A stretch of 32,943 nucleotides of DNA from a virus (lineage: Duplodnaviria > Caudoviricetes): positions 1-32,943 of the IMG/VR virus record IMGVR_UViG_3300033153_005598; one strand, given 5' to 3'. Both the position numbers and the translations under genes were made by a program. The notes below the pieces were generated by a model, which had not been told where the DNA came from, made no database searches, and saw nothing but the letters and a program-made list of their open reading frames with translations. Positions 803 to 32,840 of this stretch are shown in pieces; position 1 is the first letter of the stretch, and the number at the start of each line of letters is the position of its first letter.

Positions 803-1085
803 TTAGCCGCTTGATTTCATCTTGAATCGCTTCTTTACGTTGAATCATGATTGTTTTGTTAGGCGCTGATAATATGAGCATTATCGCTTGCATAATCCTA
901 GCTGCCTGGTCTCTGGAAACTGTCTTTTCTTTTAGGCGCTGCTCTTCTGCTTCTAGATTGGCAACATACAATTCCATACCCCCGGGAACGTTTTGGCATT
1001 CAAGGAAATGCCACGGTAATGTTGCACGACACATCTCACAACGCTTTTTAGTTTTGGGCCGGGGGAGGTCTATCATTTCTTTCAT
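750..1085 (-). CDS. hypothetical protein with CxxC/HxxxC; last ~16 codons read out of frame through the inverted repeat
   Basis: ORF track; ATGA overlap with the upstream gene; CEMC...HFLEC motif. Confidence 0.6.
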   Translation of the reverse strand: MKEMIDLPRPKTKKRCEMCRATLPWHFLECQNVPGGMELYVANLEAEEQRLKEKTVSRDQAARIMQAIMLILSAPNKTIMIQRKEAIQDEIKRLRLIKTIRPTGAVNGERA

Positions 1086-1798
1086 TCTCTTTTCCCGTTC
1101 GCTTTATCATACAAATATCCATACACATTGCCAAAAGATTTCTCAAAGTCATAAATTGATGTCTTTGTCCGCCCTGGAGTCTCAAAAAACGCCTTCATCA
1201 CCCCCTTGATAGCTCTAGGCTTATATGTTTTAAGCAGCCGTTTAATCACCGAACCCCAGGCTCCATAATTGATTATCAAGGGGAAGTTCCGATAAAATTC
1301 ATGTAGTTGTGCAAAATGATGTGTGAGTTCTGTAACTCGACTATCTCCAACTTCCGAGTTCTTCCGAGTCCGTTGAGGCTTCTGTGTCTTATCAATAAGA
1401 ATGTCCAATTTCTTGTCTATTTCCCCTAGTACTAGATATATATATAAATCTAGGTTTCCTTTATCTATATTTCCCTTTGTCTTATTATATATACTAGTAT
1501 CTAGTTTCCCACTGGTAAACTTATTGGATATGGTATCTTTATCTCTAGTATTGGCTTTCTCATCACTCCTAGTGATAAGCTCCCCGGTGTGCAAATTCAA
1601 CACTTTGAACACTTTGCAAAGTTCCTGAATGACAAGAAAAAGAACCTGCTCTCGTCTCTCAATTTCAGGGACCGATACCCCCTGTTCCCATTTAGCATAA
1701 GCGGAAGAGCTGATCTTGAGCAAACTCCCCATTTCTCGCTGAGAACGTGATAGGGTGTTTCTTGCTAGTTTAAGGATCTTGTCAAATATATTTGCCAT
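1082..1798 (-). CDS. putative replication initiator with N-terminal XRE-type HTH
   Basis: SQREMGSLLKISSSAYAKWEQGVSVP is an XRE/Cro HTH. It is followed by a low-complexity linker on AT-rich palindromic DNA and a helical C-terminal domain, the architecture of lambda-O-like initiators. Confidence 0.6.
   Translation of the reverse strand: MANIFDKILKLARNTLSRSQREMGSLLKISSSAYAKWEQGVSVPEIERREQVLFLVIQELCKVFKVLNLHTGELITRSDEKANTRDKDTISNKFTSGKLDTSIYNKTKGNIDKGNLDLYIYLVLGEIDKKLDILIDKTQKPQRTRKNSEVGDSRVTELTHHFAQLHEFYRNFPLIINYGAWGSVIKRLLKTYKPRAIKGVMKAFFETPGRTKTSIYDFEKSFGNVYGYLYDKANGKRE
1421..1575. other. candidate replication origin inside the initiator gene
   Basis: AT-rich; seven CTAG (1426, 1432, 1450, 1494, 1501, 1545, 1569); perfect palindromes CTAGTACTAG (1426-1435) and ATACTAGTAT (1491-1500). 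Confidence 0.45.
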
Positions 1799-2084
1799 AA
1801 TTTCTTACCGGGTTCTCAACCTTTCCGTTTTTAACAAGAGTTTGATATTTAAATCTCATATTAGGCCCTGTCGAATAATACAGATCAGCAATAGCCTCCC
1901 AATTCATGCCAGATTCAACTAGCTCAATTAACTTCTGCTCTTTTTCAGGTGTCCAGTCCACGATCATCTCAGAGCCCATTCCTTGCTCTGTTGGCGGAGG
2001 CAGACTAGCAAATGCCCACTTGGTATACCCATCCCCTGTGATTCTCATATGAAATTGCCAATAACAATCTGCATACATATACAT
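1782..2084 (-). CDS. Myb/SANT-like HTH protein (one repeat)
   Basis: WTPEKEQKLIELVESGMNWEAIA motif; likely ATG at 2084 just past the upstream stop; shares RITGDxY...SLPP with the neighbouring gene. Confidence 0.6.
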   Translation of the reverse strand: MYMYADCYWQFHMRITGDGYTKWAFASLPPPTEQGMGSEMIVDWTPEKEQKLIELVESGMNWEAIADLYYSTGPNMRFKYQTLVKNGKVENPVRNYGKYI

Positions 2085-2085
2085 T

Positions 2086-2856
2086 CTATGCAATCCTCTT
2101 TCCTGATATAACAGCACCTTTTTTAAGCGCAATGATCAGCGAGGCATCCTCGTTCTGTTCCCTCTCATTTTGTACCCAGGTCCATAAAATGTCAAGAAGA
2201 TTCGAAAATTCCGGTTGCTTTTTACCTGTTACAAAATCAAAATCCCCGTGCCAGGGCGATGTCTTTTTTCGAGATGTATGATTTTTCATACCTTTTAAAG
2301 TAAGAAAACCAAGGGTATATGCTTTGCCTCTTATCGCTGCCAGAGAACGTCCTAAATGCTCGGCACAATATTCTATCCCCTTGTTAGCGAGGTTTTTCTT
2401 CAAGTATTCTTCTTCTTCGGGTTTCCAAGAATTAGTAGGTAATTTTTTTGTGTGTGTTAGGCCCAATTCTTTGATCTTGGCCCATATAGTGGTCTCGTGT
2501 TTATCTAGGGCGGCTACAAGAGACTTATAGGGATCATTCACGTGCGTCCTCAGATATTCGATTTGTTCTTCGGTCCATTCCCTCTGCTTGCTTAGAGGAG
2601 GGGCTAGGCCACGCCTAACCAATAATCTATAATGAACCAATACTGAGGATGAGGTTGTTATAAAATGATCTGCTAGTTCTTTCCAGCTTTTGTTAGGCGC
2701 CAAAGAAATAAGCTCTTTATCTTTTTCCGCTGTCCATTTAACCCGAAACCGTTCTTCGTTCTTTGTCGGGGGCAGAGACCTGCCAAAGTTGAACAACTCG
2801 TAAGAATCTCCTGTTATGCGTTGGGGTGGATCTTTGCAGCCCTTGTATCTATACAT
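2086..2856 (-). CDS. Myb/SANT-like tandem HTH repeat protein (three repeats)
   Basis: WTAEKDKELI, WTEEQIEYLR and WKPEEEEYLK repeats, each followed by an HTH-like segment (e.g. AEHLGRSLAAIRGKAYTLG). Confidence 0.65.
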   Translation of the reverse strand: MYRYKGCKDPPQRITGDSYELFNFGRSLPPTKNEERFRVKWTAEKDKELISLAPNKSWKELADHFITTSSSVLVHYRLLVRRGLAPPLSKQREWTEEQIEYLRTHVNDPYKSLVAALDKHETTIWAKIKELGLTHTKKLPTNSWKPEEEEYLKKNLANKGIEYCAEHLGRSLAAIRGKAYTLGFLTLKGMKNHTSRKKTSPWHGDFDFVTGKKQPEFSNLLDILWTWVQNEREQNEDASLIIALKKGAVISGKRIA

Positions 2857-2857
2857 T

Positions 2858-3079
2858 TCAATCGTCCAGTGTTATACCTAATTCCTCCATCCTCTCGTGT
2901 ACCCGGTCCCATACTCCCTCTGCAAACTCGGTATTCTTCTCATCATCACCATGTTTCCATACAGGACGAAGGATCTCCCAGTAGAGCCCCCATATAACGC
3001 TTTTCCATTTCCAGCCATTTATTGCATCTTGGTGCTCTATCCTCTCCCTGGGTAAAGAAAACTCAAGTATTGCTTTCAT
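2858..3079 (-). CDS. hypothetical phage protein
   Basis: ORF track; GGAG RBS; TAATG coupling with the upstream ORF. Confidence 0.7.
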   Translation of the reverse strand: MKAILEFSLPRERIEHQDAINGWKWKSVIWGLYWEILRPVWKHGDDEKNTEFAEGVWDRVHERMEELGITLDD

Positions 3080-3240
3080 TAATCTTCTCCTACGGGTTTT
3101 CGGGCTTCTTTAAGACATTTTGTACAGATAACAATATTGTAAAAATGCTTCTTTAGGCGTTTGTGAAACAACGGCTTATCACGGAATCGTACAGAAGCCT
3201 GGGCCTTCCCGCATAGATCACAAACGCCATATTTAGCCAT
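3079..3240 (-). CDS. 53-aa zinc-finger-like protein (not in ORF track)
   Basis: Hand translation MAKYGVCDLCGK...VICTKCLKEARKPVGED*; two CxxC; fills the gap with overlapping ends. Confidence 0.7.
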   Translation of the reverse strand: MAKYGVCDLCGKAQASVRFRDKPLFHKRLKKHFYNIVICTKCLKEARKPVGED

Positions 3241-3607
3241 TTAGTTTCTCCTGGTATTCTCTGATCATTTCTTCAAGTTCAGCGTTGGAAAATTTACGCA
3301 GATTCTTATACTTAGCATGAAGGCGATCATAAGCTGTTTTTCCGAACGTCCCCAAAAACCAGTTAGTGAGGGGATAGGGATCGTATTCATGCTTCAGATT
3401 GCACGATGAGCATTGTGCGAAAGCGTTATCGGGGTCCCACCGGGTACTGTAACTCTGCCTACTGAACAGATGTCCACACTGCAAGTTGTCTCTTGATCCA
3501 CAGGTTACACACCGTTCGTCTCGCTGCCTAATAAACCGGCTAAATACATTATCCAATCTTCCTACTAGGCACTTTCTTTTAGATTTTTTCAACGATTTTA
3601 CCCGCAC
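3233..3607 (-). CDS. ninG: NinG/Rap-family HNH-type structure-specific endonuclease
   Basis: FSRFIRQRD..CVTCG...CGHLFSR...TRWDPDNAFAQCSSCN signature. Confidence 0.85.
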   Translation of the reverse strand: MRVKSLKKSKRKCLVGRLDNVFSRFIRQRDERCVTCGSRDNLQCGHLFSRQSYSTRWDPDNAFAQCSSCNLKHEYDPYPLTNWFLGTFGKTAYDRLHAKYKNLRKFSNAELEEMIREYQEKLNG

Positions 3608-4052
3608 TGAATGTCCTCCATTGCAAAATTATGTCTTGAATGTCTGTTTGAGCATCAAGACACTCGTTGATTGTTCCCCGAATCAGGTTGTACATCTCGT
3701 TTACAGACAGCTCGTTTGTGCTTACTACAAATAAGAATTTTCCATCGGGGGTTTCTACTATCTGGCCATGTCTTTTGCTAGTTAGGCCGTGCTCAATAGA
3801 ATACACAACCCCATGGCGTAGCTTAAAATCCATTTTGACCTTTTCTCGGGAAAGATTGTTTTCTTTGCGGTAAGCATCAACCAGGGCATGAAATAGACGA
3901 AAAGCTTCTTCGCTTCGTTTGGCTGGAAGGGGCTCAATGGTCATGCGGAGTCTGATCCCTTCGGTGAGATTATTCTTATACATTGCCAGATCACCGGGAG
4001 AATCGGGGATGATTAATCCCCTCTTAAACGTAGCGGCTCCTACAAATTTCAT
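3579..4052 (-). CDS. NinB/Orf-like recombination accessory protein
   Basis: RSEEAFRLFHAL...VKMDFK...STNELSVNEMYNLI pattern; adjacent to ninG; ATG 4052 is in ATGA overlap with the upstream gene. Confidence 0.55.
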   Translation of the reverse strand: MKFVGAATFKRGLIIPDSPGDLAMYKNNLTEGIRLRMTIEPLPAKRSEEAFRLFHALVDAYRKENNLSREKVKMDFKLRHGVVYSIEHGLTSKRHGQIVETPDGKFLFVVSTNELSVNEMYNLIRGTINECLDAQTDIQDIILQWRTFSAGKIVEKI

Positions 4053-4810
4053 ACTATCCGTACCTCGCCATGCCATTTACCTATCTTGTTTTTTACCCCC
4101 CAACATTCATCACGATAGCCGCAGTAACTACAATTCCAATCCCCTTTGTATTCACGGCCCTTGTGTTGAAACTTGTCCTTGATTTTTCCATCAACGATAG
4201 ATGCTACATATTCCCTAGGGGGAAGCTCGTTGTCAGACAGATAGTGCTCTACAATTTGGAATCTCATAAGCAGATTCCTGAATCTATGCTCGGTCTCATC
4301 GTTTTTCTGGATTGTGAAAATAGTACGATAGGCGTTGTCACGGCCAAGATAAAAAAGATATCCTTTCCTGCAATCGGACATGTGGAGATAAAGGACTAGT
4401 TGGTTATAATGATCTTCTTTAGGCGCCCCGCTTTGCTGGATGTTCTGAATTCCCCGCCCGTAGGAGCTTTTTACTTCCAATATCTCCCAGGGAGCTTCCC
4501 CGTCCCTAAATCGCACATCAATTCGTCCCTTGATGGGGTATTTCAAAGCTGGATGCTCAAGGAATACTTCAACTTCTTCTTCGACTTCATAACCCGCGCC
4601 CCGGAGCAGATCGGGGATGATCTTGTGGATAGAATTCCCCATGCCCATTTTCCAAAGTGCTCCGGCTTCAATAGGGTTTGAAGGTTCTCGGCCCTTCCAC
4701 TTGTACCAGGCTTGTCTCGCACAAGCAGTACATTCGGAAGGATAGTGGTTAGTCTTTTCCCGCTTCTCGTGTTGTAGCAACACCTTGTCGAGCTCATCTA
4801 TCAGGTCCAT
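4049..4810 (-). CDS. Cas4-like PD-(D/E)xK exonuclease (solo, no CRISPR context)
   Basis: N-terminal CARQAWY, GRID, EVKS, QLVLY and C-terminal CSYCGYRDEC, giving a four-Cys Fe-S arrangement. Confidence 0.85.
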   Translation of the reverse strand: MDLIDELDKVLLQHEKREKTNHYPSECTACARQAWYKWKGREPSNPIEAGALWKMGMGNSIHKIIPDLLRGAGYEVEEEVEVFLEHPALKYPIKGRIDVRFRDGEAPWEILEVKSSYGRGIQNIQQSGAPKEDHYNQLVLYLHMSDCRKGYLFYLGRDNAYRTIFTIQKNDETEHRFRNLLMRFQIVEHYLSDNELPPREYVASIVDGKIKDKFQHKGREYKGDWNCSYCGYRDECWGVKNKIGKWHGEVRIV

Positions 4811-4826
4811 TACGTTCTCCTTCTAC

Positions 4827-5048
4827 TTATGAGAGATTAACGTGTTTACCAAGTCCCGCTTCAAACCAAGAACAATCATTATTTTTATTAATATCTTTAG
4901 GACTATTTTCGAAAAGATCAGCCTTTGCCCGATATGTATCTTTTCTGTTTTGTGGTGCCCGACACCATTCTCGGTAACTGCCTAAAACGCCTATAAAAGT
5001 TTTGAAATATCTACAATTTATGCAAAAGATCTTCTCATTCTTTGTCAT
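4827..5048 (-). CDS. small Cys-rich hypothetical protein
   Basis: CINCRYF...C...NKNNDCSWFE; GAGGGG RBS. Confidence 0.7.
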   Translation of the reverse strand: MTKNEKIFCINCRYFKTFIGVLGSYREWCRAPQNRKDTYRAKADLFENSPKDINKNNDCSWFEAGLGKHVNLS

Positions 5049-5059
5049 GTCATCCCCTC

Positions 5060-5761
5060 TTAATCTCCTTTAACGGCTTTGTAAGCAATCTCGACTAAAT
5101 TGATATCGGCAATATTGGAAGCATAGGAGGCGGCAATGGCAGTGTCGTCCGCGGCATCGCCTGCATAGGCAGCATAGACGAGATCGGCAACATAGGCCGC
5201 ATCAGAGGCATGAGAGGCGGCCTCGGCCACAGCACCCGCCGCATCAGAGGCATGAGAGGCGGCCTCGGCCACAGCACCCGCCGCATCAGAGGCATGAGAG
5301 GCGGCCTCGGCCACAGCACCGCCGTTGTAGATACTGCAAGCGGCGATGCAGGCGACACGGCTGTTTCTATTTTCCCCATTTAACCAATCATTCGCCCATT
5401 TGGTCCATGTTCTGTCTTTGCATACTTTCTTTGCACAGAGAATAGCAAACCGCACCGTCTGCTCTATCGTTATCCGTGGCATATCTATGCGCTTTATTGT
5501 GGTCAGTTTTTTACATCCAACCTTCAGGCCCCTGTCATTTCTGCCGATCTCGCCCTCACACTCCCACATATGTCCTGTGTATGTATCATATTCGCCATGT
5601 ATGGGATTCATCAGCACCGCTAAAATCGGATCAGTATATGCATGTATCCAGTGCTTAGTACACAACCTACCTTTCCCATCTGCCGTGTGGGTCACGCCCT
5701 CTCCCCATTGGCAGTCTCCATAGGTCTGGTCGTTTTTATCAGTCAGCTTGTACAGTTTCAC
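5060..5761 (-). CDS. Ala-rich-tail paralog family protein (copy 2, intact)
   Basis: GTG at 5761 after AGGAG; KLYKLTDKNDQTYG...WIHAYTDPILAVLMNPIH; Ala-rich C-terminus. Confidence 0.8.
   Translation of the reverse strand: MKLYKLTDKNDQTYGDCQWGEGVTHTADGKGRLCTKHWIHAYTDPILAVLMNPIHGEYDTYTGHMWECEGEIGRNDRGLKVGCKKLTTIKRIDMPRITIEQTVRFAILCAKKVCKDRTWTKWANDWLNGENRNSRVACIAACSIYNGGAVAEAASHASDAAGAVAEAASHASDAAGAVAEAASHASDAAYVADLVYAAYAGDAADDTAIAASYASNIADINLVEIAYKAVKGD
5196..5320. repeat. 42-bp tandem repeat x3 (GAVAEAASHASDAA)
   Basis: Unit gccgcatcagaggcatgagaggcggcctcggccacagcaccc starts at 5196, 5238 and 5280. Confidence 0.95.
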
Positions 5762-5898
5762 TTCTCCTGTTCCTTTCCCCAATACCCAGTTGATATATTA
5801 ATGTCAATGTTATAATATAATGCGCCGCTACCCACTGGCCTCTTTAACAGCGGATGTATGCTTTTTCATACATATTAAAGTATACGCGCGGCGCCTAA

Positions 5899-6138
5899 TT
5901 AAAATATATCGTCTTGTTGGTGTGTCTGTTGTCGGGGTTGTCCTTGGGGCTGAGCGGGCTTTGAAATAAACACACTCATATCGGGTGATTTGTCACTCCT
6001 TTTTTGTTTGTTCCTAAACACCACAACCCGTATTTCCTGCCCCCCAACATTAATGATACCGGACATATACCGGGTACCACCCTTGCTCGTTTTTACCCAC
6101 AAAGAACCTATGCGATTGTTGCTGTCTTGGTCGCTCAT
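5899..6138 (-). CDS. small SSB-like (DUF736-like) protein
   Basis: IGSLWVKTSKGGTRYMSG...FRNKQKRSDKSPD, Q/P-rich linker and acidic-aromatic tail DDIF; ATG 6138 after AGGAGG. Confidence 0.6.
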   Translation of the reverse strand: MSDQDSNNRIGSLWVKTSKGGTRYMSGIINVGGQEIRVVVFRNKQKRSDKSPDMSVFISKPAQPQGQPRQQTHQQDDIF

Positions 6139-6146
6139 ATTGCCTC

Positions 6147-6392
6147 CTATACTTCCTCCCAAATGGGATCTTGGTATACACAATTATAGTTATAATGCCT
6201 TTTGTATGTTTTGCATACTGCATCTACAATATCTTCCACTACGCCATCTTTAAGATGCTCAGCGATGTTTTGATCCCCATTTGTTGAAATTATTAAGTGC
6301 CAGCCTTCTTCGGTTAGAGGGTTAAGTTTTCCTGCCACTTGATATTTAATACCATCAACATCAACAGAACCAATCGAAAAGCTTACTTCCAT
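6147..6392 (-). CDS. hypothetical protein
   Basis: ATG 6392 (MEVSF) after GAGGT. Confidence 0.6.
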   Translation of the reverse strand: MEVSFSIGSVDVDGIKYQVAGKLNPLTEEGWHLIISTNGDQNIAEHLKDGVVEDIVDAVCKTYKRHYNYNCVYQDPIWEEV

Positions 6393-6405
6393 AGCTACCT
6401 CATAA

Positions 6406-6490
6406 TAAAAATACCCGATGCGTCCCAACGGGGCACACCGGGTATAAGGAGGGTGATCATCAACACTTGCGCTATTCGCTCAATTTGCAT
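6406..6490 (-). ncRNA. candidate ~85-nt small RNA or leader carrying an anti-Shine-Dalgarno
   Basis: Bounded by a consensus promoter and a terminator; contains GAUCACCCUCCUUA. Confidence 0.45.
6407..6445 (-). terminator. rho-independent terminator
   Basis: Minus strand ATACCCGGTGTGCCCC-GTT-GGGACGCATCGGGTAT (two G-U pairs, one mismatch) followed by TTTT. Confidence 0.75.
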
Positions 6491-6496
6491 ATTCAA

Positions 6497-6525
6497 ACCA
6501 TATCACAAAACAATTAAATTGTCAA
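6497..6525 (-). promoter_or_regulatory. sigma70-type promoter
   Basis: TTGACA-N17-TATGGT with extended -10 TG. Confidence 0.75.
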
Positions 6526-6544
6526 GTAGTTTCTTTAAGTTTTT

Positions 6545-6973
6545 TTAGTGTCTGTCCTGCACTCCTTTGAACTTTTCATATGTTCTCATACCGGCCAAGC
6601 CCAACATTCCAAAAAGTAACGTCATTAAAGGGGCCATGTCTATAGGGGGCATAGTTAGGCCCACTATTTGTGATAGCAGGGGTGCTATCAAAAAATGATA
6701 AGCTAGGGCAATTCCACACACCCATAAAATAAAGGGGCGAGCCCCGGCTACAAAGAATCGTGCTGATCTCGCCGCCGCTGCATTTACTTCTGCTTGTGCT
6801 TTTGCTATATCAACCTCCATCTGGGCCAAGGCCATATCAAATTTTGCTTGTTCGTCCGGGGGAAGATTCTTTGCAAAAGTGTTGCGGATATTACGGGTTG
6901 CGCCTGACAAAGTAGTAATCGTTTCTCCCACAACCTTAGCGCCGCCGGCGCCTAACCACGAAAAAATCCCCAT
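6545..6973 (-). CDS. holin (3-TM, GTA-holin-like family)
   Basis: FFVAGARPFILWVCGIALAYHFLIAPLL...LLFGMLGLAGMRTYEK signature. Confidence 0.85.
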   Translation of the reverse strand: MGIFSWLGAGGAKVVGETITTLSGATRNIRNTFAKNLPPDEQAKFDMALAQMEVDIAKAQAEVNAAAARSARFFVAGARPFILWVCGIALAYHFLIAPLLSQIVGLTMPPIDMAPLMTLLFGMLGLAGMRTYEKFKGVQDRH

Positions 6974-7080
6974 ACTTTCCTCCAGATTCTTATTATATTA
7001 TCCCACAGAAAGATGATATATGTCTCCAAAAATACACCTATCACCCACAACCACCAAAAAACGATCCTATATCGTTTCAT
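6952..7080 (-). CDS. 42-aa hydrophobic peptide (not in ORF track)
   Basis: MKRYRIVFWWLWVIGVFLETYIIFLWDNIIRIWRKVWGFFRG*; ATGA overlap with the upstream gene. Confidence 0.5.
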   Translation of the reverse strand: MKRYRIVFWWLWVIGVFLETYIIFLWDNIIRIWRKVWGFFRG

Positions 7081-7397
7081 TCCTCTTTCTCCTTCAATTC
7101 ACGATACCGCTTCAACGCCGTAGTGGAGCATACTCCTAATAGTCTAGCCACTTCTGTATGCTTCTTGATCGGCCAATAGCGAAGCAGTAAGACGTCTTTC
7201 TGTGGGGTCCAGTCAATTTCAGCAGGTCCCTTTGCGGAAGGCAGAGCATCAAAGGCTTTAAGGGTTTCTTCGTCAATCTCAACCTGAATTATATGGTTGG
7301 AATTTCGATGCGTTGGTCCAAATGGGATAATATTATTCTGTTTCCCATTTCTTTTAGGTTGCTTCTTTCCCCAAGATGTATGTCTAATCTCGTCCAT
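7077..7397 (-). CDS. protein with C-terminal Myb-like HTH
   Basis: WTPQKDVLLLRYW...HTEVARLLGVCSTTALKRYREL; ATG 7397 after AGGGGG. Confidence 0.6.
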   Translation of the reverse strand: MDEIRHTSWGKKQPKRNGKQNNIIPFGPTHRNSNHIIQVEIDEETLKAFDALPSAKGPAEIDWTPQKDVLLLRYWPIKKHTEVARLLGVCSTTALKRYRELKEKEE

Positions 7398-7405
7398 GTT
7401 TCCCC

Positions 7406-7912
7406 CTATGCTTCTACCCATCTTCGGATCTCATCAAGACCAACTGGGTAATAATCCCATGAATCCACACCTATGTCTAAAACTCTATCAGGAGGATTTG
7501 TTAGGCGGCCGTGACTGTGGCCGTGTAACATGATGCTACCATAATGAGATCGGGGCCAGCTTAACATCGGATAATGACAAACAACAACATATACATCCCC
7601 TATCTTCCGCTCCCAGAGGAAGGGTAAGTTTGTGCCCCATTTGTCATGCGAGCCTTGTAGAAACACATGATATCCATTAAGCTGCTCGATAATCTCCCCC
7701 ACTTTCTTCTTGGCTGCCAGGGCAAAATCACCGGCGTGAATTACGGTATCATTCTTGCCCACTACTTCATTATGCCGCCTAATTAATTTTTCATTCATCT
7801 CTTCAACTGTAGTAAACGGTCTTTGAGTATATTTAAGAATGTTCTGATGAAAATAGTGCTCGTCGGCTGTAAAAAAGTAGTTAGGCGTCGCGCTGCGACA
7901 CTCTGGTTTCAT
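7406..7912 (-). CDS. calcineurin-like metallophosphoesterase
   Basis: FTADEH, AGDF, GSHD, CHYP and HGHSH motifs; start re-assigned to ATG 7912. Confidence 0.85.
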   Translation of the reverse strand: MKPECRSATPNYFFTADEHYFHQNILKYTQRPFTTVEEMNEKLIRRHNEVVGKNDTVIHAGDFALAAKKKVGEIIEQLNGYHVFLQGSHDKWGTNLPFLWERKIGDVYVVVCHYPMLSWPRSHYGSIMLHGHSHGRLTNPPDRVLDIGVDSWDYYPVGLDEIRRWVEA

Positions 7913-8081
7913 ATTTTTTCTCCGCATCTCGGCAGGCGCGGTCGGCATCATCTTCTTGGTCAAAATAACCGACGTATATTTGCCTTCCGTCAACCCAGAT
8001 TCGGCCCTGCCATTTCTTATCGCGATAGTGCCAACAGACGCCCCTGTAGATTGAGCTTCCATTTCTCCCAAGCCCCTCCAT
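7881..8081 (-). CDS. stand-alone AP2 DNA-binding domain protein
   Basis: SSIYRGVCWHYRDKKWQGRIWVDGRQIYVGYFDQEDDADRA is the AP2 signature; no HNH domain attached. Confidence 0.8.
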   Translation of the reverse strand: MEGLGRNGSSIYRGVCWHYRDKKWQGRIWVDGRQIYVGYFDQEDDADRACRDAEKKYETRVSQRDA

Positions 8082-8095
8082 GATAGTTTCCCCCT

Positions 8096-8857
8096 CTATA
8101 TAACTTTCTCGTATTCCCTCTTGACTACAATTCTTAGGGGCATTATAAACTTCTGAATATCTACCTTCTCTTTAGAGACCTCAAACAATAACAAGCCTAT
8201 ATCATAATAGAAAGGTCTGCATTTCCGCCCAAACACGTTTAGGGGCACCTGGAAACATGGTGTGGAGATAGCCACCTTATTCGCGCTTTCCATGCGGGTA
8301 AAATAGTGAATGTGACTCCGCACTGTAAAATCTGCCGCCTCCCTATCCTCAAAGGTGGCCCTCATCATGTCCCGGACGGCTTCCTTAAATAACTGCGTAC
8401 CTTGTCCATAGGGAGTGGTGCTATTACCTACGACGTGTCTAAAATTAAATTTCCATTCTTCTATATGCAATAATTGTGTGTCTTTGATAGATCCGTTTAA
8501 AGCGTCGGCTAAGGGTTCCTCATAATTATAAGAACCTACAGAATGAAAAGGCGAACCAAATGTGAGATACCAGCGGTTTGTCTTGATTTTTTCAAACACG
8601 GTTTCGGCGATTTCTACCTGTTTCATCGTATCGGTCGTTAACTGCTCGATATCTTCTCTTTTGCCTTCTCCGTCTAGGCCGTCACCATTTAAGACGGCCA
8701 CATCCACCGGGCCTATGTCTTTTATCGTTTTCTCGTACCAGTCCCACATCGGTTTTAGTACCATAGCCGTATCGGGAGGTATCCATTCGGGGGGTGTTAG
8801 ACCCAACCGACTACCTATATGGGTATCTGCTATCACCAATATCCGTTTTGTTTTCAT
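8096..8857 (-). CDS. metallophosphoesterase-fold protein
   Basis: IADTHIG, NGDGLDG, GSPFH, FRH and RSHIH motifs. Confidence 0.75.
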   Translation of the reverse strand: MKTKRILVIADTHIGSRLGLTPPEWIPPDTAMVLKPMWDWYEKTIKDIGPVDVAVLNGDGLDGEGKREDIEQLTTDTMKQVEIAETVFEKIKTNRWYLTFGSPFHSVGSYNYEEPLADALNGSIKDTQLLHIEEWKFNFRHVVGNSTTPYGQGTQLFKEAVRDMMRATFEDREAADFTVRSHIHYFTRMESANKVAISTPCFQVPLNVFGRKCRPFYYDIGLLLFEVSKEKVDIQKFIMPLRIVVKREYEKVI

Positions 8858-8866
8858 GTACGCCTC

Positions 8867-9286
8867 CTATCGGAGAAGTTTGAATATCCTCTTACTAATT
8901 AGGCGCCCTTCTGTCACGGCCCTGCTCACGCCCCAAGGGTCGTAAGCCACATGGCCTTTCCCGTCTCCCGTTACAAAATGCCTCCAACCTCCTTTTTTGA
9001 ACATGAGAATCTCTATTTCGTCTTTTTTGCAATCTTGGTTAGGCGGCAAATGCTGGTCATAATAATACACGGGTAGACCCATGAAATCGAATATTGCCGC
9101 TGGATCTCGAATATAGGCATCCTCTTCCATGAAACCCCGGTCAATTAGAATCTGGAATATTTCGTTGATCATCCCCGTGCTGATCTCGCAATTGGTATAT
9201 TTATTGACAAGGAAAAGGATAGATAGCAAATAGCAACCGTAACGCCGGATGGTAGGATTTAGGCGTGGGTCACGCTGGAGTATCAT
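8867..9286 (-). CDS. DUF261-like papain/C39-type Cys peptidase, candidate endolysin
   Basis: ILQRD...RYGCY, HFV and YDP give a putative Cys-His-Asp triad; located directly after the tail genes. Confidence 0.6.
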   Translation of the reverse strand: MILQRDPRLNPTIRRYGCYLLSILFLVNKYTNCEISTGMINEIFQILIDRGFMEEDAYIRDPAAIFDFMGLPVYYYDQHLPPNQDCKKDEIEILMFKKGGWRHFVTGDGKGHVAYDPWGVSRAVTEGRLISKRIFKLLR

Positions 9287-9299
9287 AATCGTACCTCTA

Positions 9300-9328
9300 T
9301 TTATAACATAGATTTATCTTTTTGTCAA
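9300..9328 (-). promoter_or_regulatory. sigma70-type promoter
   Basis: TTGACA-N17-TATAAA upstream of 8867..9286. Confidence 0.75.
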
Positions 9329-9333
9329 GACGT

Positions 9334-9537
9334 TTATTCCTGTAGGGTTTCAACCAAGGATTCAATATTATTTACTTTTTCTTCTATCCTATATAATATC
9401 GGGATGATTTGATCTATTAGGCGCTCGGTTCGGTTCAACCGGGCATTAACCTGGCCAAAGGCAAAACCGCCTAACAAAACAACTAAGGCAAGAACAATAG
9501 TAAGAATTTTAGGTAGTACACTTGGCTTCTCGTTCAT
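9334..9537 (-). CDS. single-TM coiled-coil protein (lysis accessory candidate)
   Basis: ILTIVLALVVLLGGFAFG then heptad-like C-terminus. Confidence 0.65.
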   Translation of the reverse strand: MNEKPSVLPKILTIVLALVVLLGGFAFGQVNARLNRTERLIDQIIPILYRIEEKVNNIESLVETLQE

Positions 9538-9562
9538 TTATTTTCCTTATCTTTTCCAGATT

Positions 9563-9811
9563 TCATTTTGTCATTTTCGCCTCTATCATTTTGTTTTCCA
9601 ACTTCGCCAACCTGGACTCAAGCTTGGCTATTTTCACGTCTCTCGGATCAAGGGACTCTACATAATCTTTGCCCCCGGGTTCCATGTCTCGGATGTGCTG
9701 CGGAATCTTATCAACGATAACAAATCCGGCATCGAGCTTAGCTTGGTCCACCTTCCGCCCCACAGGGCTGTATTCAACTCCGTCTGGATATTCTTTCAAG
9801 TAAAATCTCAT
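9563..9811 (-). CDS. hypothetical protein downstream of tail fibre (possible assembly chaperone)
   Basis: ATGA overlap with the tail fibre stop; C-terminal coiled coil. Confidence 0.65.
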   Translation of the reverse strand: MRFYLKEYPDGVEYSPVGRKVDQAKLDAGFVIVDKIPQHIRDMEPGGKDYVESLDPRDVKIAKLESRLAKLENKMIEAKMTK

Positions 9812-21678: not shown

Positions 21679-21702
21679 GTTAGGCGCCCGAGGACGCCTA
21701 AC
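21679..21702 (-). terminator. hairpin built from two opposed TTAGGCG motifs; probable terminator
   Basis: Minus strand GTTAGGCGTC-CTCG-GGCGCCTAAC followed by TATTTT. Confidence 0.65.
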
Positions 21703-22403: not shown

Positions 22404-22428
22404 TTAGGCGCCCAGGGGGGGCGCCTAA
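22404..22428. promoter_or_regulatory. intergenic inverted repeat of two TTAGGCGCCC arms
   Basis: TTAGGCGCCC-aGGGG-GGGCGCCTAA, perfect 10-bp stem; no clear U-tract. Confidence 0.6.
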
Positions 22429-25166: not shown

Positions 25167-26993
25167 TTATTTGGCACCTCCCGTTGGTAGACCTATTGGA
25201 ACACCGGGTCCAGGTGGCCCCATTGGGGCAGGGGGTAAGCCCGGAGGTCTACCTTTCCCCGGCGGTCCCATCATCATTTTCTTCTCTTTTCTTTTCAAAA
25301 TCTTATCTTTCGCCGGAAACCTCAAAATATCCAATATCGCCTCATCGTCAATAACGCTTGCCGGGGTTACCTGTACTTCCCCAAGACGCAAAGCCAAATT
25401 TGCCAGAGACTGTTTGTCCATCGGCAATGTTGAATTAGTTTGAACTTCAATATCAAAGGCTGCATATATCTGATCTTCGCCCATCATCTTTACAACTTTC
25501 TGATAATCCTCATCCTCGGTTATGCGTTTTTTATATTCTTCCGGATCTTCTCCTTCTTGGGGTTCAGGTCTGCTAACTTCTTGTAGAAAACCCGGGGAGT
25601 TGCTAATCGGCATGAACTCAATCTCTTCGTCCTTCCGCATGGAAAAAGTTCTCGGTTCGTTATAATATTGCTGCATAAGCTCAAGCATTAAATAGGCAGC
25701 TCGTTTTATACTGGCTTCAAGATTCCTTACCCTTTGCCGGGTACGGGTGTAAGATGATTCGATTAAGATACTTACCTCGGAAGCACTTTGGCGTTGCTTT
25801 TTCGAGGCCATACCTTTAGAGATATCTGTTACTCCAGATACCTCTTCTATTAGGCCGGCAATACCTTGCATCAAATCACTGTGGACCTTGTCGAATGGGG
25901 CTACTTTGATGGGCCTAACTGGTTCGTCTGTTGCGCTCATATTCGCCAAGAATACATTATCACCCTCGGCGAGATCCTTCTTGATGGTCTCTACATCAAG
26001 TCCAGTCGTCTCGTCGACCATATAGTTAGTCCGGGCGTGTTTGCGGCAATGATGCACCATGTCTTGCAGGCGGGCGTTAAATTCACGGTTTAAGTTCTCG
26101 ATCTGTTGCGGTTCACAAATGCCCCAAAATGAATGTGGCACCTGGTAGTCATAAAATGCAACCCAGGGTGGTTTCCCGTGAGAAAAAGGCGAAGATTCAT
26201 CTTGGAGTTTCACTCCATTCTTGGAAAATACCACATACCTACCGTTAGGATATTTCTTTCGGGTACCCTTCTTTTCTTCGGGATTCCCGTCTTTATCCAG
26301 TTCTTCGGTTATATATTCTTCAATCCTTTCGTCTTGCATCCAAATCTCATAAATAGTGACCTTTCGGCCCTGGAGTTCAAAATCCTCCATCTCTGACATA
26401 TTTAAGCGTTTTTCTACATCATCGTCCGGTGTTACATCTTTATACTTATCTGGATAATTGGATTTTACCCACATCATAGTACGCTGCTTAACCGTACCAC
26501 AATAGTGACAATTCCATAGATCATCATCTCCCGGAGAGATGAAAAAAGTCCGGGGATCTTCCAGGTCAACAGCAACTTCGCCGCCAAACTCGGCGTTTGG
26601 ATCAAATCGAATCTTCCACAATCCAACAGGCCAAATTTGCGAATCCTTAACAACACGATAAGTTTTGACATCGAGTTCGAGTTTATCCCAAAGATAATCT
26701 AACGCTTTGCTATACACATTGATATAGTCTTGCATATAAGATTCCCGAGCCCGAACATTCCAAATAGGCCGATTGTCGGTCAACAGGGGGGCATTTGTTT
26801 CTACCGTGGCGAAAATATAATTACAGAATACGGCGGAATCGTTGGTTTTTAAGTTTTTCTTATCCCACCATTCCCCGTTATATTCTCTTAACCATCGGTT
26901 CATGTCCTTTCGCCGGCTCTTGTAGGACTCGCTCTCCCATATCTTGTCGATCTCGTTCTGTAATTTCTCTATAAATCTATCTTTTTTCATCAT
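25167..26993 (-). CDS. portal protein (P22-like)
   Basis: 608 aa; NYIFATVET, DPRTFFISP, SPFSHGKPPW, SFWGI, VSGVTDIS and FDIEVQTNS motifs. Confidence 0.85.
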   Translation of the reverse strand: MMKKDRFIEKLQNEIDKIWESESYKSRRKDMNRWLREYNGEWWDKKNLKTNDSAVFCNYIFATVETNAPLLTDNRPIWNVRARESYMQDYINVYSKALDYLWDKLELDVKTYRVVKDSQIWPVGLWKIRFDPNAEFGGEVAVDLEDPRTFFISPGDDDLWNCHYCGTVKQRTMMWVKSNYPDKYKDVTPDDDVEKRLNMSEMEDFELQGRKVTIYEIWMQDERIEEYITEELDKDGNPEEKKGTRKKYPNGRYVVFSKNGVKLQDESSPFSHGKPPWVAFYDYQVPHSFWGICEPQQIENLNREFNARLQDMVHHCRKHARTNYMVDETTGLDVETIKKDLAEGDNVFLANMSATDEPVRPIKVAPFDKVHSDLMQGIAGLIEEVSGVTDISKGMASKKQRQSASEVSILIESSYTRTRQRVRNLEASIKRAAYLMLELMQQYYNEPRTFSMRKDEEIEFMPISNSPGFLQEVSRPEPQEGEDPEEYKKRITEDEDYQKVVKMMGEDQIYAAFDIEVQTNSTLPMDKQSLANLALRLGEVQVTPASVIDDEAILDILRFPAKDKILKRKEKKMMMGPPGKGRPPGLPPAPMGPPGPGVPIGLPTGGAK

Positions 26994-27566: not shown

Positions 27567-29132
27567 TCATTTAACGAATCTATCCTCCCAGTTTGGTCTT
27601 GAGGGTTTGAACATACCCGCTATCGTGTTAGGATCTTCTGCGGGTATCTCGATCCCTCCATGCCGCGCAAACGTTTCTATACAATTAAACAACATGCTTG
27701 CGGCATCTAACAGGTCGTCTTCATCCGCTTCTCGACCTGTATATAGATCCATCTGCTGCAATAAAGGAATACAGCTTTCTAGAATCTGGCATTTTCCAGC
27801 TCGGCAAAAAGCGCCTAACGTATCAGCTATCTTCTGAGCTTTGGATTTTGTTCTAGGCGTTTTTATCGGAAAAATGGGAAATCCTAGCCTTGTTTGATGG
27901 ATTCTGTTGTATTCGCTTAATTTCAACTGAATCACATATTTCAAATGTTCCTGCTGCCCGAATTCGATCCCTACCCTCTTGGGATTGTACTGGATCGCCT
28001 TTTGGATCAGCAAATCCGCCAATCGGTCACCGCTCATCTTCACTTTTATCGATTCGATGATGTATAGGCGATTAGCTTCACATACCGCACCTATCACAAT
28101 ACCTGAATGATCGCTCCATCTCTTTGTGGTAGCCGCTGGATCACAGGCTACGTAATATGTATACTCTCCCGGAGGAAGTCCAGAAATTGTCGGATGCGGC
28201 GGGGGAAAGATTTTCTCTTCCGTTGGCGTCGGGTTAAGAAGATACTGACACGAAAATTTATAATCATCTCGCATCATCCTCTTCCGTCGCATCAGTGCTT
28301 TAAGCGAAAAGTACTTATAGATCGGTTTTCCATTTTGAATTGCAGGTCGCTCAAAAATATGATCAATAAGCTTTTCTCTTTTAATTACTGCATATAGGTC
28401 TGCATAATGATAGGGAGTACCTATTGCAGTAATCTCGGCTTTGGTATCCAACATGGGTTGTAAATAACCCCACCAATCTATCGCCTTCGCTATTTGATCC
28501 GCTGTGGTAACTGATTTTTCGTCAATCACATCATCCAAGTAAGCTTTTTCAAAGTGAAAGCCAGTGATCTTTGCCCCTACGCCCACTGCTAAAATCTGCG
28601 GTCCTTGGGGAATATATCCTCTCTCCGGATCTCTTTTCAGCGTTAATTCTTGTTCGGTGGCCTTTTCCCATCCATTATATTCTTTCCCAGGATCAGGAAT
28701 AATTTCTGGAAACAAGCTACGCAAAATGGATGTTGAAAATATCCGTTTAATATCCGTCAATTCTTGTACTACAAGGCGTTTGGTAGCAGAGGCTAACAAG
28801 ATCCTGATATTAGGATTGTTTAGGATTTCTTGAACAATCTTTAGCTTTACCCAGGTAGATTTCATATGGTCCCTGGGAACCAGGATCAGTTTATCTCCGG
28901 GTCTATCGAGCAGCCGCACGAGCCACCGGTGAAATTTCGGATCTATCCGCCTTTTCCCTTCTCTTGTTTTATCCCATCCTAGAACCTCGGTCGCTAAATA
29001 ATATAGATCGGTTAGGCATTTCCACTTGATATACAAGCGCGATGCTTCAAGTTCATTCCCGTCAACTAGTTCGAGGATTTCTTCAAGTTTACGTTGTTCG
29101 CTCGGCTTGCGTTTAGGTGCGATATCGGACAT
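27567..29132 (-). CDS. terL: terminase large subunit
   Basis: Walker A-like PRDHMKST, Walker B LDDVID, coupling motif IGTPYH, nuclease CDPA...DEDDLLDA; ATG 29132 in TAATG overlap (track start 29174 is TTG). Confidence 0.92.
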   Translation of the reverse strand: MSDIAPKRKPSEQRKLEEILELVDGNELEASRLYIKWKCLTDLYYLATEVLGWDKTREGKRRIDPKFHRWLVRLLDRPGDKLILVPRDHMKSTWVKLKIVQEILNNPNIRILLASATKRLVVQELTDIKRIFSTSILRSLFPEIIPDPGKEYNGWEKATEQELTLKRDPERGYIPQGPQILAVGVGAKITGFHFEKAYLDDVIDEKSVTTADQIAKAIDWWGYLQPMLDTKAEITAIGTPYHYADLYAVIKREKLIDHIFERPAIQNGKPIYKYFSLKALMRRKRMMRDDYKFSCQYLLNPTPTEEKIFPPPHPTISGLPPGEYTYYVACDPAATTKRWSDHSGIVIGAVCEANRLYIIESIKVKMSGDRLADLLIQKAIQYNPKRVGIEFGQQEHLKYVIQLKLSEYNRIHQTRLGFPIFPIKTPRTKSKAQKIADTLGAFCRAGKCQILESCIPLLQQMDLYTGREADEDDLLDAASMLFNCIETFARHGGIEIPAEDPNTIAGMFKPSRPNWEDRFVK

Positions 29133-29542
29133 TATCTTGTAATCGCTGTCATCCCTCCGGGATTCTTTTTCCAAGGAAGATCTCTTACCCTGGCAATATC
29201 TTGCGACAACTTAGGTCGGTTTTCCCACAAGATTCTCAGCTTTTCGCCAATGGTTGGAGCAGAACGCTGCATACCTTGTTCTTGCATCTTGTTGATATAC
29301 TTATTGATATCGAATGGTTCCTCTTGGGGAGCGGGCTGTTCTGGAGGCTGGAGTGATTCCAGATAATCTAGGATCAAATCATAATCTATTGTCGGTGTTT
29401 TCCCACTCCACTGTTCTCCCATGGCTTCATATGCCTCGGGCGCTAAATCCACCATAGCCTCGTGCAATTCCATATCAGGTTCGAATCGTCCCCATTTTTG
29501 ACGATTTGCTTGTACTCTTGTCCATAATTCAGTTAGGTCCAT
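29132..29542 (-). CDS. hypothetical protein, first gene after the late-region terminator
   Basis: AGGAGG RBS; coupled to terL. Confidence 0.7.
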   Translation of the reverse strand: MDLTELWTRVQANRQKWGRFEPDMELHEAMVDLAPEAYEAMGEQWSGKTPTIDYDLILDYLESLQPPEQPAPQEEPFDINKYINKMQEQGMQRSAPTIGEKLRILWENRPKLSQDIARVRDLPWKKNPGGMTAITR

Positions 29543-29786: not shown

Positions 29787-29834
29787 ATTGAAAACCCGTT
29801 TTGCGCTATACCCATTTTGCCTTACAAAGTAACC

Positions 29835-30757: not shown

Positions 30758-30799
30758 CTCAGCTTAGTAGGCTTCTATTAATGACATCTCAGTCTTATC

Positions 30800-31159: not shown

Positions 31160-31186
31160 CAGTCTAAATTCTCGTCACCTTTCGGA

Positions 31187-31215
31187 AGTATATCATAATT
31201 CATAACTTCTGTCAA
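31187..31215 (-). promoter_or_regulatory. sigma70-type promoter
   Basis: TTGACA-N17-TATACT with extended -10 TG. Confidence 0.8.
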
Positions 31216-31493: not shown

Positions 31494-31503
31494 AGTACCG
31501 GGC

Positions 31504-32121
31504 TCAGTCCCCCCTCCCCCGCCGGAGATGGGCGGAACCGGAGGGTAGCCCCTGCCTATGTATCAGTTTAAGCAGCTCCTTATCCTTGGCCAGGTCCACT
31601 GCCGCCTTGGCCGCGTCGCGTATGCCAGTCACTCTAAAATACAGATCCGCAGCCTTGATAACATCGGCCGGCCGGGGGGAAGTCTCCGTAGACGCGCATA
31701 CCTTGCCGTCCTTATCCTTGGTGGTTGAGGTGATACGATAGGAGCCCTTGAGGATTTGTGCGAGGCGTGCGGCGACTACCACTCTGTCCATACCTTGAGA
31801 AGCGAATACGGCTTCTATTTCGGATCTTATAGTGGGATTTTGTAGGTAATCATGTCCAGCTACTTTGGCTGTATTTTGGTTAGCGTTGGGATGGGATAGG
31901 GCATAGCTACGAGAAGCGTTTTTGTAGGATGGGCCTGTAGGGTCGCAATAGCGGATTACGAACTCTTGTTGTTTAGGGTTGAGTTTAGGTTTAGTTAGGC
32001 GCCCAGAATTCGAGCTCTTGTTTCGGTTGTTCTCAGCCTTTTTTTCTGGACTCGCCTGATCCCTTTCTGCCGGTGCAGAATCCCTTTCTGAGCCGTTTAT
32101 GAGCCCATTATCAGTATTCAT
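31504..32121 (-). CDS. terS: terminase small subunit
   Basis: LNPKQQEFVIRY...NASRSY...TAKVAGHDYLQNPTIRSEI HTH; IKAADL oligomerisation helix. Confidence 0.75.
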   Translation of the reverse strand: MNTDNGLINGSERDSAPAERDQASPEKKAENNRNKSSNSGRLTKPKLNPKQQEFVIRYCDPTGPSYKNASRSYALSHPNANQNTAKVAGHDYLQNPTIRSEIEAVFASQGMDRVVVAARLAQILKGSYRITSTTKDKDGKVCASTETSPRPADVIKAADLYFRVTGIRDAAKAAVDLAKDKELLKLIHRQGLPSGSAHLRRGRGD

Positions 32122-32280
32122 TTATTTGCTCTTTTTGTTAGGCGCCTGGCTTTTTGATGCTTCACCTTTTTGATAACTTTGGCCTGTACTTTCCTGGCAA
32201 ATCTTGATTGCTGTTACTTTATCCCAACCCTGAGCAATCAGAGATTGTACGCATCGATATACTCTTGTTCCTTTAGGCAT
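32122..32280 (-). CDS. 52-aa basic protein (not in ORF track)
   Basis: MPKGTRVYRCVQSLIAQGWDKVTAIKICQESTG...; TAAGGAG RBS. Confidence 0.7.
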   Translation of the reverse strand: MPKGTRVYRCVQSLIAQGWDKVTAIKICQESTGQSYQKGEASKSQAPNKKSK

Positions 32281-32282
32281 TT

Positions 32283-32429
32283 TTACTCCTTATTGGGCGG
32301 GTCGAGCTCCGCCCAGCTATCAGGATCGCTCTCCATCATATCCATCATATGATCCCGTATATCATCTATCTCGCAATCAATAGCTATATATTCGGCTAAT
32401 AGCTCTACCCAATAATCTATCGCATCCAT
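32283..32429 (-). CDS. small acidic protein
   Basis: MDAIDYWVELLAEYIAIDCEIDDIRDHMMDMMESDPDSWAELDPPNKE; track start 32465 lies inside the -10 box. Confidence 0.5.
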   Translation of the reverse strand: MDAIDYWVELLAEYIAIDCEIDDIRDHMMDMMESDPDSWAELDPPNKE

Positions 32430-32460
32430 AGTTGCCTTATCATAATAGTACTCCTTGCCT

Positions 32461-32489
32461 ATCATACATCATTCACAACAAATTGTCAA
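32461..32489 (-). promoter_or_regulatory. leftward sigma70-type promoter
   Basis: TTGACA-N17-TATGAT. Confidence 0.8.
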
Positions 32490-32566
32490 GGGGAGTGTAT
32501 ACTATACAATCGTTAAGCTAGTTAGGCGTTTTTTCTGTCTTTTTTCATCTTTTTTTCGTTTTTCGC

Positions 32567-32595
32567 TTGACAGGCTAATCTATCCGTGATAGTAT
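32567..32595 (+). promoter_or_regulatory. rightward sigma70-type promoter
   Basis: TTGACA-N17-TAGTAT with extended -10 TG. Confidence 0.7.
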
Positions 32596-32647
32596 CTATT
32601 ATAGATGATTCGCCAAAGCGAACCAAATAACAAATACGGAGGGTGTT

Positions 32648-32791
32648 ATGAAAAGCTACGAGGTTATCGGCTATGCGCGGGATGGGGCTATGTATTGCCT
32701 TATGTGTGCGGAGGAAAAAGGTTGTCCTGCATCGGAGACAGATCAAAAAAATACTGATTGGTATATTACTATGACTGTGGGATACGTTTAG
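32648..32791 (+). CDS. 47-aa protein with CxxC (not in ORF track)
   Basis: GGAGGG RBS; MKSYEVIGYARDGAMYCLMCAEEKG... Confidence 0.55.
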   Translation: MKSYEVIGYARDGAMYCLMCAEEKGCPASETDQKNTDWYITMTVGYV

Positions 32792-32840
32792 GATTAGTTA
32801 GGCGCGCTTTTGCGGTCTAATCAAGTATAAAAGGAGCAAA

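What the first reader, a model, noticed from the sequence alone, without database searches (positions are those of the whole stretch)
859..32804. Genome-wide, strand-biased TTAGGCG motif (extended TAGTTAGGCGC): stoperator-like site network
Seen: by eye I count at least 31 TTAGGCG. Plus strand (22): 859, 932, 2693, 3153, 4419, 7501, 7881, 8899, 9039, 9259, 9417, 12691, 14163, 15991, 18186, 19415, 21680, 22404, 31995, 32138, 32522, 32798. Minus strand (9): 2612, 5892, 6949, 7776, 9468, 13162, 21695, 22422, 27812. A rough base-composition estimate gives only about 3-4. The 10-mer TAGTTAGGCG occurs 7 times, all on the plus strand (7878, 12688, 15988, 21677, 31992, 32519, 32795). Copies fall in different reading frames (APN, RL, LGA) and between genes, so codon use does not explain them. 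Sixteen lie in the first 9.5 kb and four in the last 1 kb; one sits between the divergent promoters. Established: mycobacteriophage L5/Bxb1 stoperators are dispersed, asymmetric, oriented repressor sites, and Chi, KOPS, uptake and HIP sequences are host-driven alternatives. Inference: a dispersed protein-binding code for regulation, packaging or protection.
Basis: partly seen in the sequence, partly recalled or inferred. Interest (0 to 1): 0.85.

Follow-up and report, generated by a model that had tools for sequence, protein, structure and literature searches.

The report
Chi-like polar motif in uncultured phages
A small group of uncultured bacterial viruses carries a short one-way DNA word about once per thousand letters, at different places in each relative, and it likely serves as a stop signal for the unidentified host's DNA-end-degrading repair enzyme rather than as a viral gene switch.

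Summary
The window is a P22-portal podo-like phage. Two relatives carry the motif at the same density (42 in 44.9 kb; 37 in 38.4 kb) but mostly at different positions (3 of 28 shared). More distant family members lack it. The full element is an invariant core with graded flanks, about RCGCCTAAC(W)AWWAA. It fails the stoperator test: 24 of 31 sites are inside genes, and its polarity follows the genome strand even where transcription reverses (p=2e-4, one block of one relative). No integrase was found. Best reading (0.4): a Chi-like signal for the host RecBCD/AddAB-type enzyme. The motif-rich complete genome has no detectable recombinase, while three complete motif-poor relatives encode RecT or Erf. 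Sites crowd the non-structural half, and an A-rich 3' tail parallels E. coli Chi. The host was not found, so the decisive test is open. Rivals are a phage-coded DNA-binding or packaging protein (0.27) and an uptake-signal-like drive (0.13). An unrelated phage shows a related polar motif, GTTAKNYG.

The parts
859..32804 (.). 31 dispersed TTAGGCG/CGCCTAA sites; full element about 5'-RCGCCTAAC(W)AWWAA-3' on the minus strand for the 22 majority sites; invariant core TAGGC/GCCTA
803..9807 (-). non-structural block (replication, nin-like, lysis genes); with 29175-32943 it holds 20 sites in 12.8 kb (1.57/kb) against 11 in 19.4 kb (0.57/kb) of structural genes
   Evidence: p=0.006
21679..21702 (-). 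inverted pair of sites forming a hairpin after gene 21705-22034; same place in G001, G002 (GTTAGGCC arms) and L241
   Evidence: -19.7 kcal/mol, z -4.2
22404..22428 (-). second inverted pair (hairpin) after gene 22432-22884; a hairpin at the same place in G001 and G002
   Evidence: z -3.3
31995..32804 (+). four same-strand sites at the 5' end of terS and in the divergent-promoter region; G002 has five same-strand sites at its terS start
32461..32595 (.). divergent sigma70-like promoters (TTGACA-17-TATGAT leftward, TTGACA-17-TAGTAT rightward) with one site between them
31504..32121 (-). terminase small subunit; 34% identical to the G002 orthologue
27567..29174 (-). terminase large subunit
25167..26993 (-). 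P22-like portal
   Evidence: PF16510, E 6e-26
22896..23840 (-). major capsid protein; no site
1082..1798 (-). XRE-HTH protein with a conserved C-terminal domain shared with a G066 protein, likely the replication initiator; contains an AT-rich repeat region without the motif
2086..2856 (-). Myb/D5-like repeat protein, a candidate phage-coded reader; related proteins at 1782-2132 and 7077-7421
3233..4810 (-). NinG/Rap, NinB/Orf and Cas4-like exonuclease genes, without a recognisable annealing recombinase
8867..9286 (-). DUF261 protein; nearest atlas clusters are viral or mostly Spirochaetota (weak host hint)

Best explanation
The motif is likely a Chi-type signal of the unidentified bacterial host, which this phage clade would accumulate because it appears to lack its own recombinase and would depend on the host RecBCD/AddAB-type enzyme. 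Shown: enrichment, site turnover, genome-fixed polarity, bias to the non-structural half, an A-rich tail 3' of CGCCTAA, and no RecT/Erf/Sak/Sak4 match in the complete motif-rich genome. Inferred: free DNA ends (after the terminase cut, or on rolling circles) are entered by the host helicase-nuclease; on meeting 5'-GCGCCTAA(C)-3' on the 3'-ending strand it stops degrading and loads RecA, which saves phage DNA and makes the concatemers needed for packaging. Any copy in a tolerated position helps, so sites arise and decay freely.
For: Turnover: 3 shared of 28 7-mer positions in 17.7 kb aligned between G001 and G002, against background 7-mer conservation of 0.10; 5 of 58 broader sites in 21 orthologue pairs. 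Polarity: in the leftward-transcribed block of G002 the orientation stays 11:3 in the genome-wide direction (22:54 elsewhere), p=1.7e-4 against a transcription-coupled model; within 5 kb upstream of terS it is 24:3 against 83:41 elsewhere, p=0.033, window chosen after the fact. Density is 1.7-3.5-fold higher outside structural genes (p 0.09, 0.0007, 0.006 for G001, G002, window), like Chi in lambdoid phages (PMC3784561, passages). Recombinase pattern: G001 has 0 matches to PF03837, PF04404, PF13479, PF04098; complete motif-poor relatives G004 and G347 have RecT and G343 has Erf with 2, 1 and 2 sites; PMC3784561 reports the strongest Chi excess in recombinase-less phages. A at nucleotides 3-7 after CGCCTAA: 149 of 280 (background 0.30) and 46 of 115 (background 0.25) on the two strands; E. 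coli Chi is boosted by A or G at nucleotides 4-7 (PMC5041463, passages). The consensus is nearly the same in both lineages while TerS is 34% and the Myb-like protein 44% identical, which points to a reader outside the phage.
Against: No host genome with the motif was found. The excess (7-mer 42 against 3.6; 8-mer 27 against 0.7) is far above the median 2.4-4.8 reported for Chi in lambdoids. The sequence resembles no Chi listed in PMC8022716. A graded matrix, conserved inverted pairs and an AT-rich flank reaching tens of bases look more like uptake signals or a protein footprint. G is depleted, not enriched, in the 3' tail, and small control words were not all A-poor (CGCCCAA 0.48, n=5). G066, which shares 87-95% identical stretches with G001, has only 4 sites. 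G341 (rated 90% complete) has no RecT or Erf match yet only 3 sites; it looks like a shorter contig of the G004 phage but I did not align them. The recombinase contrast rests on one motif-rich complete genome. The polarity test rests on one block, which overlaps the near-terS window. The related motif in G332 has the opposite polarity relative to its terminase and portal genes.
Confidence: 0.4

Rival explanations
1. A phage-coded sequence-specific DNA-binding protein (TerS, a Myb/D5-like protein or an unannotated small protein) reads the motif to mark, coat or select phage DNA for packaging; genome copies with more sites win inside the infected cell.
For: The motif is confined to the close clade (capsid at least 89% identical) and absent in 18 of 18 more distant capsid loci. 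Graded matrix and one-sided AT-rich flank. Same-strand clusters at the terS start: 5 against 1.4 expected in G002 (p=0.016), 3 against 1.0 in G001 (p=0.07). One site between divergent promoters. Three Myb-like proteins in the window. G066 is hardly enriched despite gene sharing.
Against: TerS is 34% and the Myb-like protein 44% identical between lineages with the same consensus, and the predicted recognition helices differ. Motif-poor G004 has a homologue of the Myb-like protein. The likely initiator gene has its own repeats without the motif.
Confidence: 0.27
2. The motif is a DNA uptake signal of a naturally competent host, and it accumulates in the phage by biased uptake and recombination.
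For: Invariant core with graded flanks and an A/T tract. Inverted pairs at gene ends, as uptake sequences form in terminators (10.1101/2025.10.24.684340, passages). Density of about 600 8-mers per Mb is in the range reported for USS in prophages, up to about 750 per Mb (PMC6776037, passages). More sites in less constrained genes.
Against: USS builds up in temperate phages and is low in likely lytic ones; no integrase was found here, and the provirus G066 is not enriched. Genome-fixed polarity is not expected. A metagenome scan for the hairpin form gave 120 loci, none with motif-rich cellular flanks.
Confidence: 0.13
3. Another host-read polar signal, such as a KOPS-like translocase motif, a nucleoid-protein site or a methylation-linked repair drive.
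For: Asymmetric, genome-polar and position-free; a related polar motif occurs in an unrelated phage.
Against: No orientation switch as at ori or dif around the complete genome. A graded matrix is unlike a methylase target. It does not explain the recombinase contrast.
Confidence: 0.12
4. [quoted passage not shown]
For: More than 20 asymmetric dispersed sites; an XRE-HTH protein is present.
Against: 24 of 31 sites are intragenic, 9 of 31 are reversed, polarity is not tied to transcription (p=1.7e-4), positions are not conserved, and no integrase was found; stoperators are described as 13-mers in short intergenic spaces, oriented with transcription (PMC9283540, passages).
Confidence: 0.04

Closest known systems
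Chi sites in recombinase-less lambdoid, P1-like and T5-like phages (RecBCD; PMC3784561)
   Same: Short asymmetric motif, over-represented in a phage without a detected recombinase, denser outside the structural genes, rare in relatives with RecT or Erf; A-rich 3' flank as for E. coli Chi (PMC5041463).
   Different: New sequence (C-rich on the predicted active strand), a much larger excess, a graded matrix, conserved inverted pairs; host and enzyme unknown.
DNA uptake sequences (DUS/USS) in Pasteurellaceae and Neisseriaceae and their phages (PMC6776037; 10.1101/2025.10.24.684340)
   Same: Core with graded flanks, A/T tract, inverted pairs at gene ends, about one site per 1-2 kb.
   Different: Genome-fixed polarity, no integrase found, no host with the motif found.
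Mycobacteriophage Cluster A stoperators (PMC9283540)
   Same: More than 20 dispersed asymmetric sites.
   Different: Here mostly intragenic, not oriented with transcription, positions unstable, no sign of lysogeny.
Cluster O mycobacteriophage 17-bp repeats (PMC4351075)
   Same: About 30 dispersed copies of a 7-bp word of unknown function in an integrase-less phage.
   Different: Those are invariant inverted pairs, mostly at the same positions across genomes; here sites are mostly single, polar and turn over.

Membership tests
Chi site | Over-represented beyond composition and codon use | tested here: met
Chi site | Polarised on the replicon independently of transcription | tested here: met
   one leftward block of G002
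Chi site | Excess in recombinase-less phages, scarce in phages with their own recombinase | tested here: inconclusive
   Pattern holds for G001 against G004, G343, G347, G066; one motif-rich complete genome; G341 is an unresolved exception
Chi site | Enriched and leading-strand polarised in the host chromosome | not testable with these tools
   Host not identified; searches gave no candidate
Chi site | Changes RecBCD/AddAB nuclease activity and stimulates recombination | not testable with these tools
   needs biochemistry
Stoperator | Sites in short intergenic spaces | tested here: not met
   7 of 31 intergenic
Stoperator | Orientation follows transcription | tested here: not met
Stoperator | Temperate phage with an immunity repressor | tested here: inconclusive
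   No PF00589 match in complete G001; serine integrases not searched by family; the XRE-HTH protein looks like an initiator
DUS/USS | Inverted pairs at gene ends | tested here: met
   two conserved hairpins
DUS/USS | Hundreds of copies in the host chromosome and build-up in its prophages | tested here: inconclusive
   No motif-rich cellular contig among 120 hairpin hits; G066 has 4 sites, shared host not proven
Integron attC core sites (GTTRRRY; pattern recalled) | Inverse core and core flanking an intergenic hairpin | tested here: not met
   Sites are intragenic and the two pairs have the opposite order

The most novel reading that the evidence does not exclude
A previously undescribed class of polar DNA signal with sequence dialects (RCGCCTAAC in this clade, GTTAKNYG in an unrelated phage), read by a machine that is not RecBCD, such as a phage packaging or genome-marking protein or a new host uptake or translocation system. 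It drives position-free accumulation to half of all synonymously available places in non-structural genes.
Probability: 0.25. Interest if true: 0.8.

Novelty: new variant of a known kind. Interest (0 to 1): 0.55.

Why it matters
Chi-type motifs are known from only a handful of taxa (PMC8022716). If this is one, a phage reveals the recombination signal of an uncultured, possibly spirochaete, host, and the motif becomes a host-assignment tag: the host would be the genome with a polar excess of GCGCCTAA(C). It would extend the trade-off between own recombinase and host Chi beyond enterobacterial phages, at an unusual strength (17 of 33 available places used in non-structural genes). If a phage protein reads it instead, it is a self-marking code with free site turnover, which I did not find described in my searches.

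Tried and rejected
Codon or peptide bias: rejected. Stoperator and attC readings: rejected (see membership). Initiator iterons: the likely rep gene has other repeats and no site in the window. No annotated phage record is near the window; the terminase has only hits below 35% among the 20 listed of 121. Host search: the genome-contig scan gave one weak Turicibacter hit; its genome has 30 GTTAGGCG against 44 control; 61 relatives and 301 genomes of that phylum show no excess, and this is probably the wrong group. The metagenome hairpin scan gave 120 loci, none motif-rich apart from short or repeat-type loci; L241 is a clade member. Five DUF261 viral loci are not enriched. The MptE-like gene had no plasmid match. 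No sequencing run was listed, so read ends and the 802/803 junction were not tested. The Myb-like model was low confidence (mean pLDDT 51) and its fold search gave nothing at E<=0.001. The wide search with the XRE-HTH protein had not finished at my last try. A Mu-Gam search rang nowhere, controls included, so it is uninformative; lambda Gam and Abc2 were not searched by family. Of ten hairpin-bearing viral records checked whole, G332 has a true dispersed motif; G336 has an intergenic repeat element instead; G331 and G334 are weak. Paper searches for GTTAGGCG or CGCCTAA as a motif (listings only), for dispersed same-orientation phage motifs and for spirochaete Chi found nothing relevant. Supplementary tables of PMC3784561 and PMC8022716 were not read and may list further Chi counts or candidate octamers.
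Full report
Observation. CGCCTAA/TTAGGCG and its overlaps are the top 7-mers under Markov models. Of 64 places in window genes that could hold the 7-mer by synonymous choice, 24 do: 17 of 33 in non-structural and 7 of 31 in structural genes.

Context. The window is a tailed-phage record with TerS, TerL, a P22-like portal, capsid, holin, NinB, NinG, a Cas4-like exonuclease, Myb/D5-like proteins and DUF261. Nearly all genes are on minus; a divergent promoter pair lies at 32461-32595. G001 (44.9 kb, complete, about 95% identical) shows that the window lacks about 11 kb and that bases 1-802 are joined in inverted form. G002 (38.4 kb, capsid 89%, about 69% nucleotide identity) and G003 are further clade members.

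Distribution. G001 has 42 sites (control word 6), G002 37 (control 2), G003 6 in 10.5 kb and G004 (capsid 54%) 2. All 18 more distant capsid loci have 0-2, and eight of the records behind such loci, searched whole, have 0-3. Between G001 and G002 only 3 of 28 site positions are shared, about the background for any 7-mer; in codon-aligned orthologues 5 of 58 broader sites are shared, and amino-acid identity at sites is 62.5% against 68% overall. Between the window and G001, 28 of 31 positions are shared. Density is kept while positions are not. The exception is two inverted pairs after genes 22432-22884 and 21705-22034, which fold as hairpins in all clade members seen; they lack a clear U-tract on the coding strand in most.

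Anatomy. TAGGC is invariant and the flanks are graded. On the other strand the element reads about RCGCCTAAC(W)AWWAA. A is enriched at nucleotides 3-7 after CGCCTAA on both strands. Beyond the motif, the 30 bases on that side are AT-richer (0.60) than the other side (0.52-0.54); the permutation null has sd 0.011 against an observed difference of 0.067.

Polarity. The window's 22:9 is weak once codon constraints (about 60:40) are allowed; pooled G001 and G002 give 56:23 (p=2.6e-4 against 0.5, 0.051 against 0.6). The informative test is the leftward-transcribed block of G002, where GC skew reverses but the motif does not: 11:3 in the genome-wide direction, p=1.7e-4 against transcription coupling. 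Polarity is strongest in the 5 kb upstream of terS (24:3 against 83:41); this window was chosen after the fact and overlaps that block.

Who reads it. Stoperators are described as 13-mers in short intergenic spaces, oriented with transcription (PMC9283540, passages); these features fail here, and no tyrosine integrase was found. Phage candidates diverge while the consensus stays nearly fixed: TerS 34%, Myb-like 44%; motif-poor G004 also has a Myb-like homologue. Bobay et al. (PMC3784561, passages) report that phages without a recombinase over-represent host Chi, concentrated between replication genes and terminase. Here the complete motif-rich G001 has no RecT, Erf, Sak4-type or Sak match (and PHROG scans), whereas complete motif-poor G004 and G347 have RecT and G343 has Erf. 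The unrelated provirus G066 shares 87-95% identical stretches with G001, encodes Erf and has 4 sites, all on one strand, three of them GTTAGGCG (0.4 expected; 63 of 4317 comparable 8-mers reach 3). From my own knowledge of lambda and P22, the free end left by the terminase cut upstream of terS is entered on the strand that here carries GCGCCTAA in the majority orientation, and the A-rich tail then sits where E. coli RecBCD prefers A or G (PMC5041463, passages). The pac position is assumed, not shown.

Against this reading: no host was found; the excess is about 12-fold for the 7-mer and 40-fold for the 8-mer, well above lambdoid medians; the hairpin pairs and graded matrix fit uptake sequences (passages); G341 has no RecT or Erf match and few sites; and the same-strand clusters at the terS start also fit a packaging signal. 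DUF261 clusters are viral or mostly Spirochaetota, a weak host hint only.

A second case. The viral hairpin scan led to G332, an unrelated 35% GC head-tail phage fragment with GTTAGGTG 10 against 0.5, GTTATGTG 10 against 0.9 and GTTAGGCG 5 against 0.3; the class GTTAKNYG, defined from that genome itself, is 62 against 10, with 51 on the coding strand. Its polarity relative to its genes is opposite to this clade's. It suggests dialects of one kind of signal, or convergence.

Verdict. The motif is real, strong, limited to one clade, position-free and polar along the genome, and it is not a stoperator network. It works most like Chi (0.4); a phage-coded reader (0.27), uptake drive (0.13), another host signal (0.12) and stoperators (0.04) remain. 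Membership in the Chi family is unproven until the host chromosome and enzyme are tested. Papers were seen as passages (PMC3784561, PMC5041463, PMC8022716, PMC9283540, PMC4351075, PMC6776037, 10.1101/2025.10.24.684340) or as listings only.

Noticed in passing
window 720-802, 802/803 and 32861-32943: The window's last 83 bases are an exact inverted copy of 720-802. Against complete G001, bases 1-802 are joined to 803 in inverted form and about 11 kb is missing: an assembly or amplification chimera, or a real inversion.
   Followed up: partly
G332 (L274, L275): Unrelated low-GC phage fragment with a dense polar motif GTTAKNYG (62 against 10; 51:11).
   Followed up: partly
G001 20307-29075; G002 2749-10004: Both motif-rich genomes carry NeuB, B12-radical SAM, MptE/MAF-like, DegT aminotransferase and SDR genes, not detected in motif-poor G004; possibly virion or host-surface glycosylation with a nonulosonic acid.
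   Followed up: partly
window 10926-10990: The tail-fibre gene is split by a short tandem duplication inside its repeated units (ORFs 10926-12989 and 9808-10977), possibly an assembly artefact.
   Followed up: no
L058/L059 (G336, about 15.6-26.9 kb): An intergenic element with telomere-like GGTTAG(G) repeats followed by a GTTAGGCG...CGCCTAAC hairpin recurs between small genes of a 60% GC phage.
   Followed up: partly
L135 12720-12830 and 13205-13295: A repeated element of about 85 bases with short inverted repeats precedes leftward early genes in G002.
   Followed up: no
whole window, G001, G002, G004, G066: CGCG, AGATCT and CATTG are under-represented in all four records counted, and CAGCTG in three of four, suggesting shared restriction pressure.
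   Followed up: no
window 181-753, 5060-5782, 32841-32943: Ala-rich DUF7666-like genes without any motif site; close copies occur in the unrelated provirus G066, which fits recent acquisition.
   Followed up: partly
G331 (L273): A 6.3-kb Microviridae-like circle has 5 TTAGGCG (2 of them the selected hairpin) against 0.4 expected.
   Followed up: no
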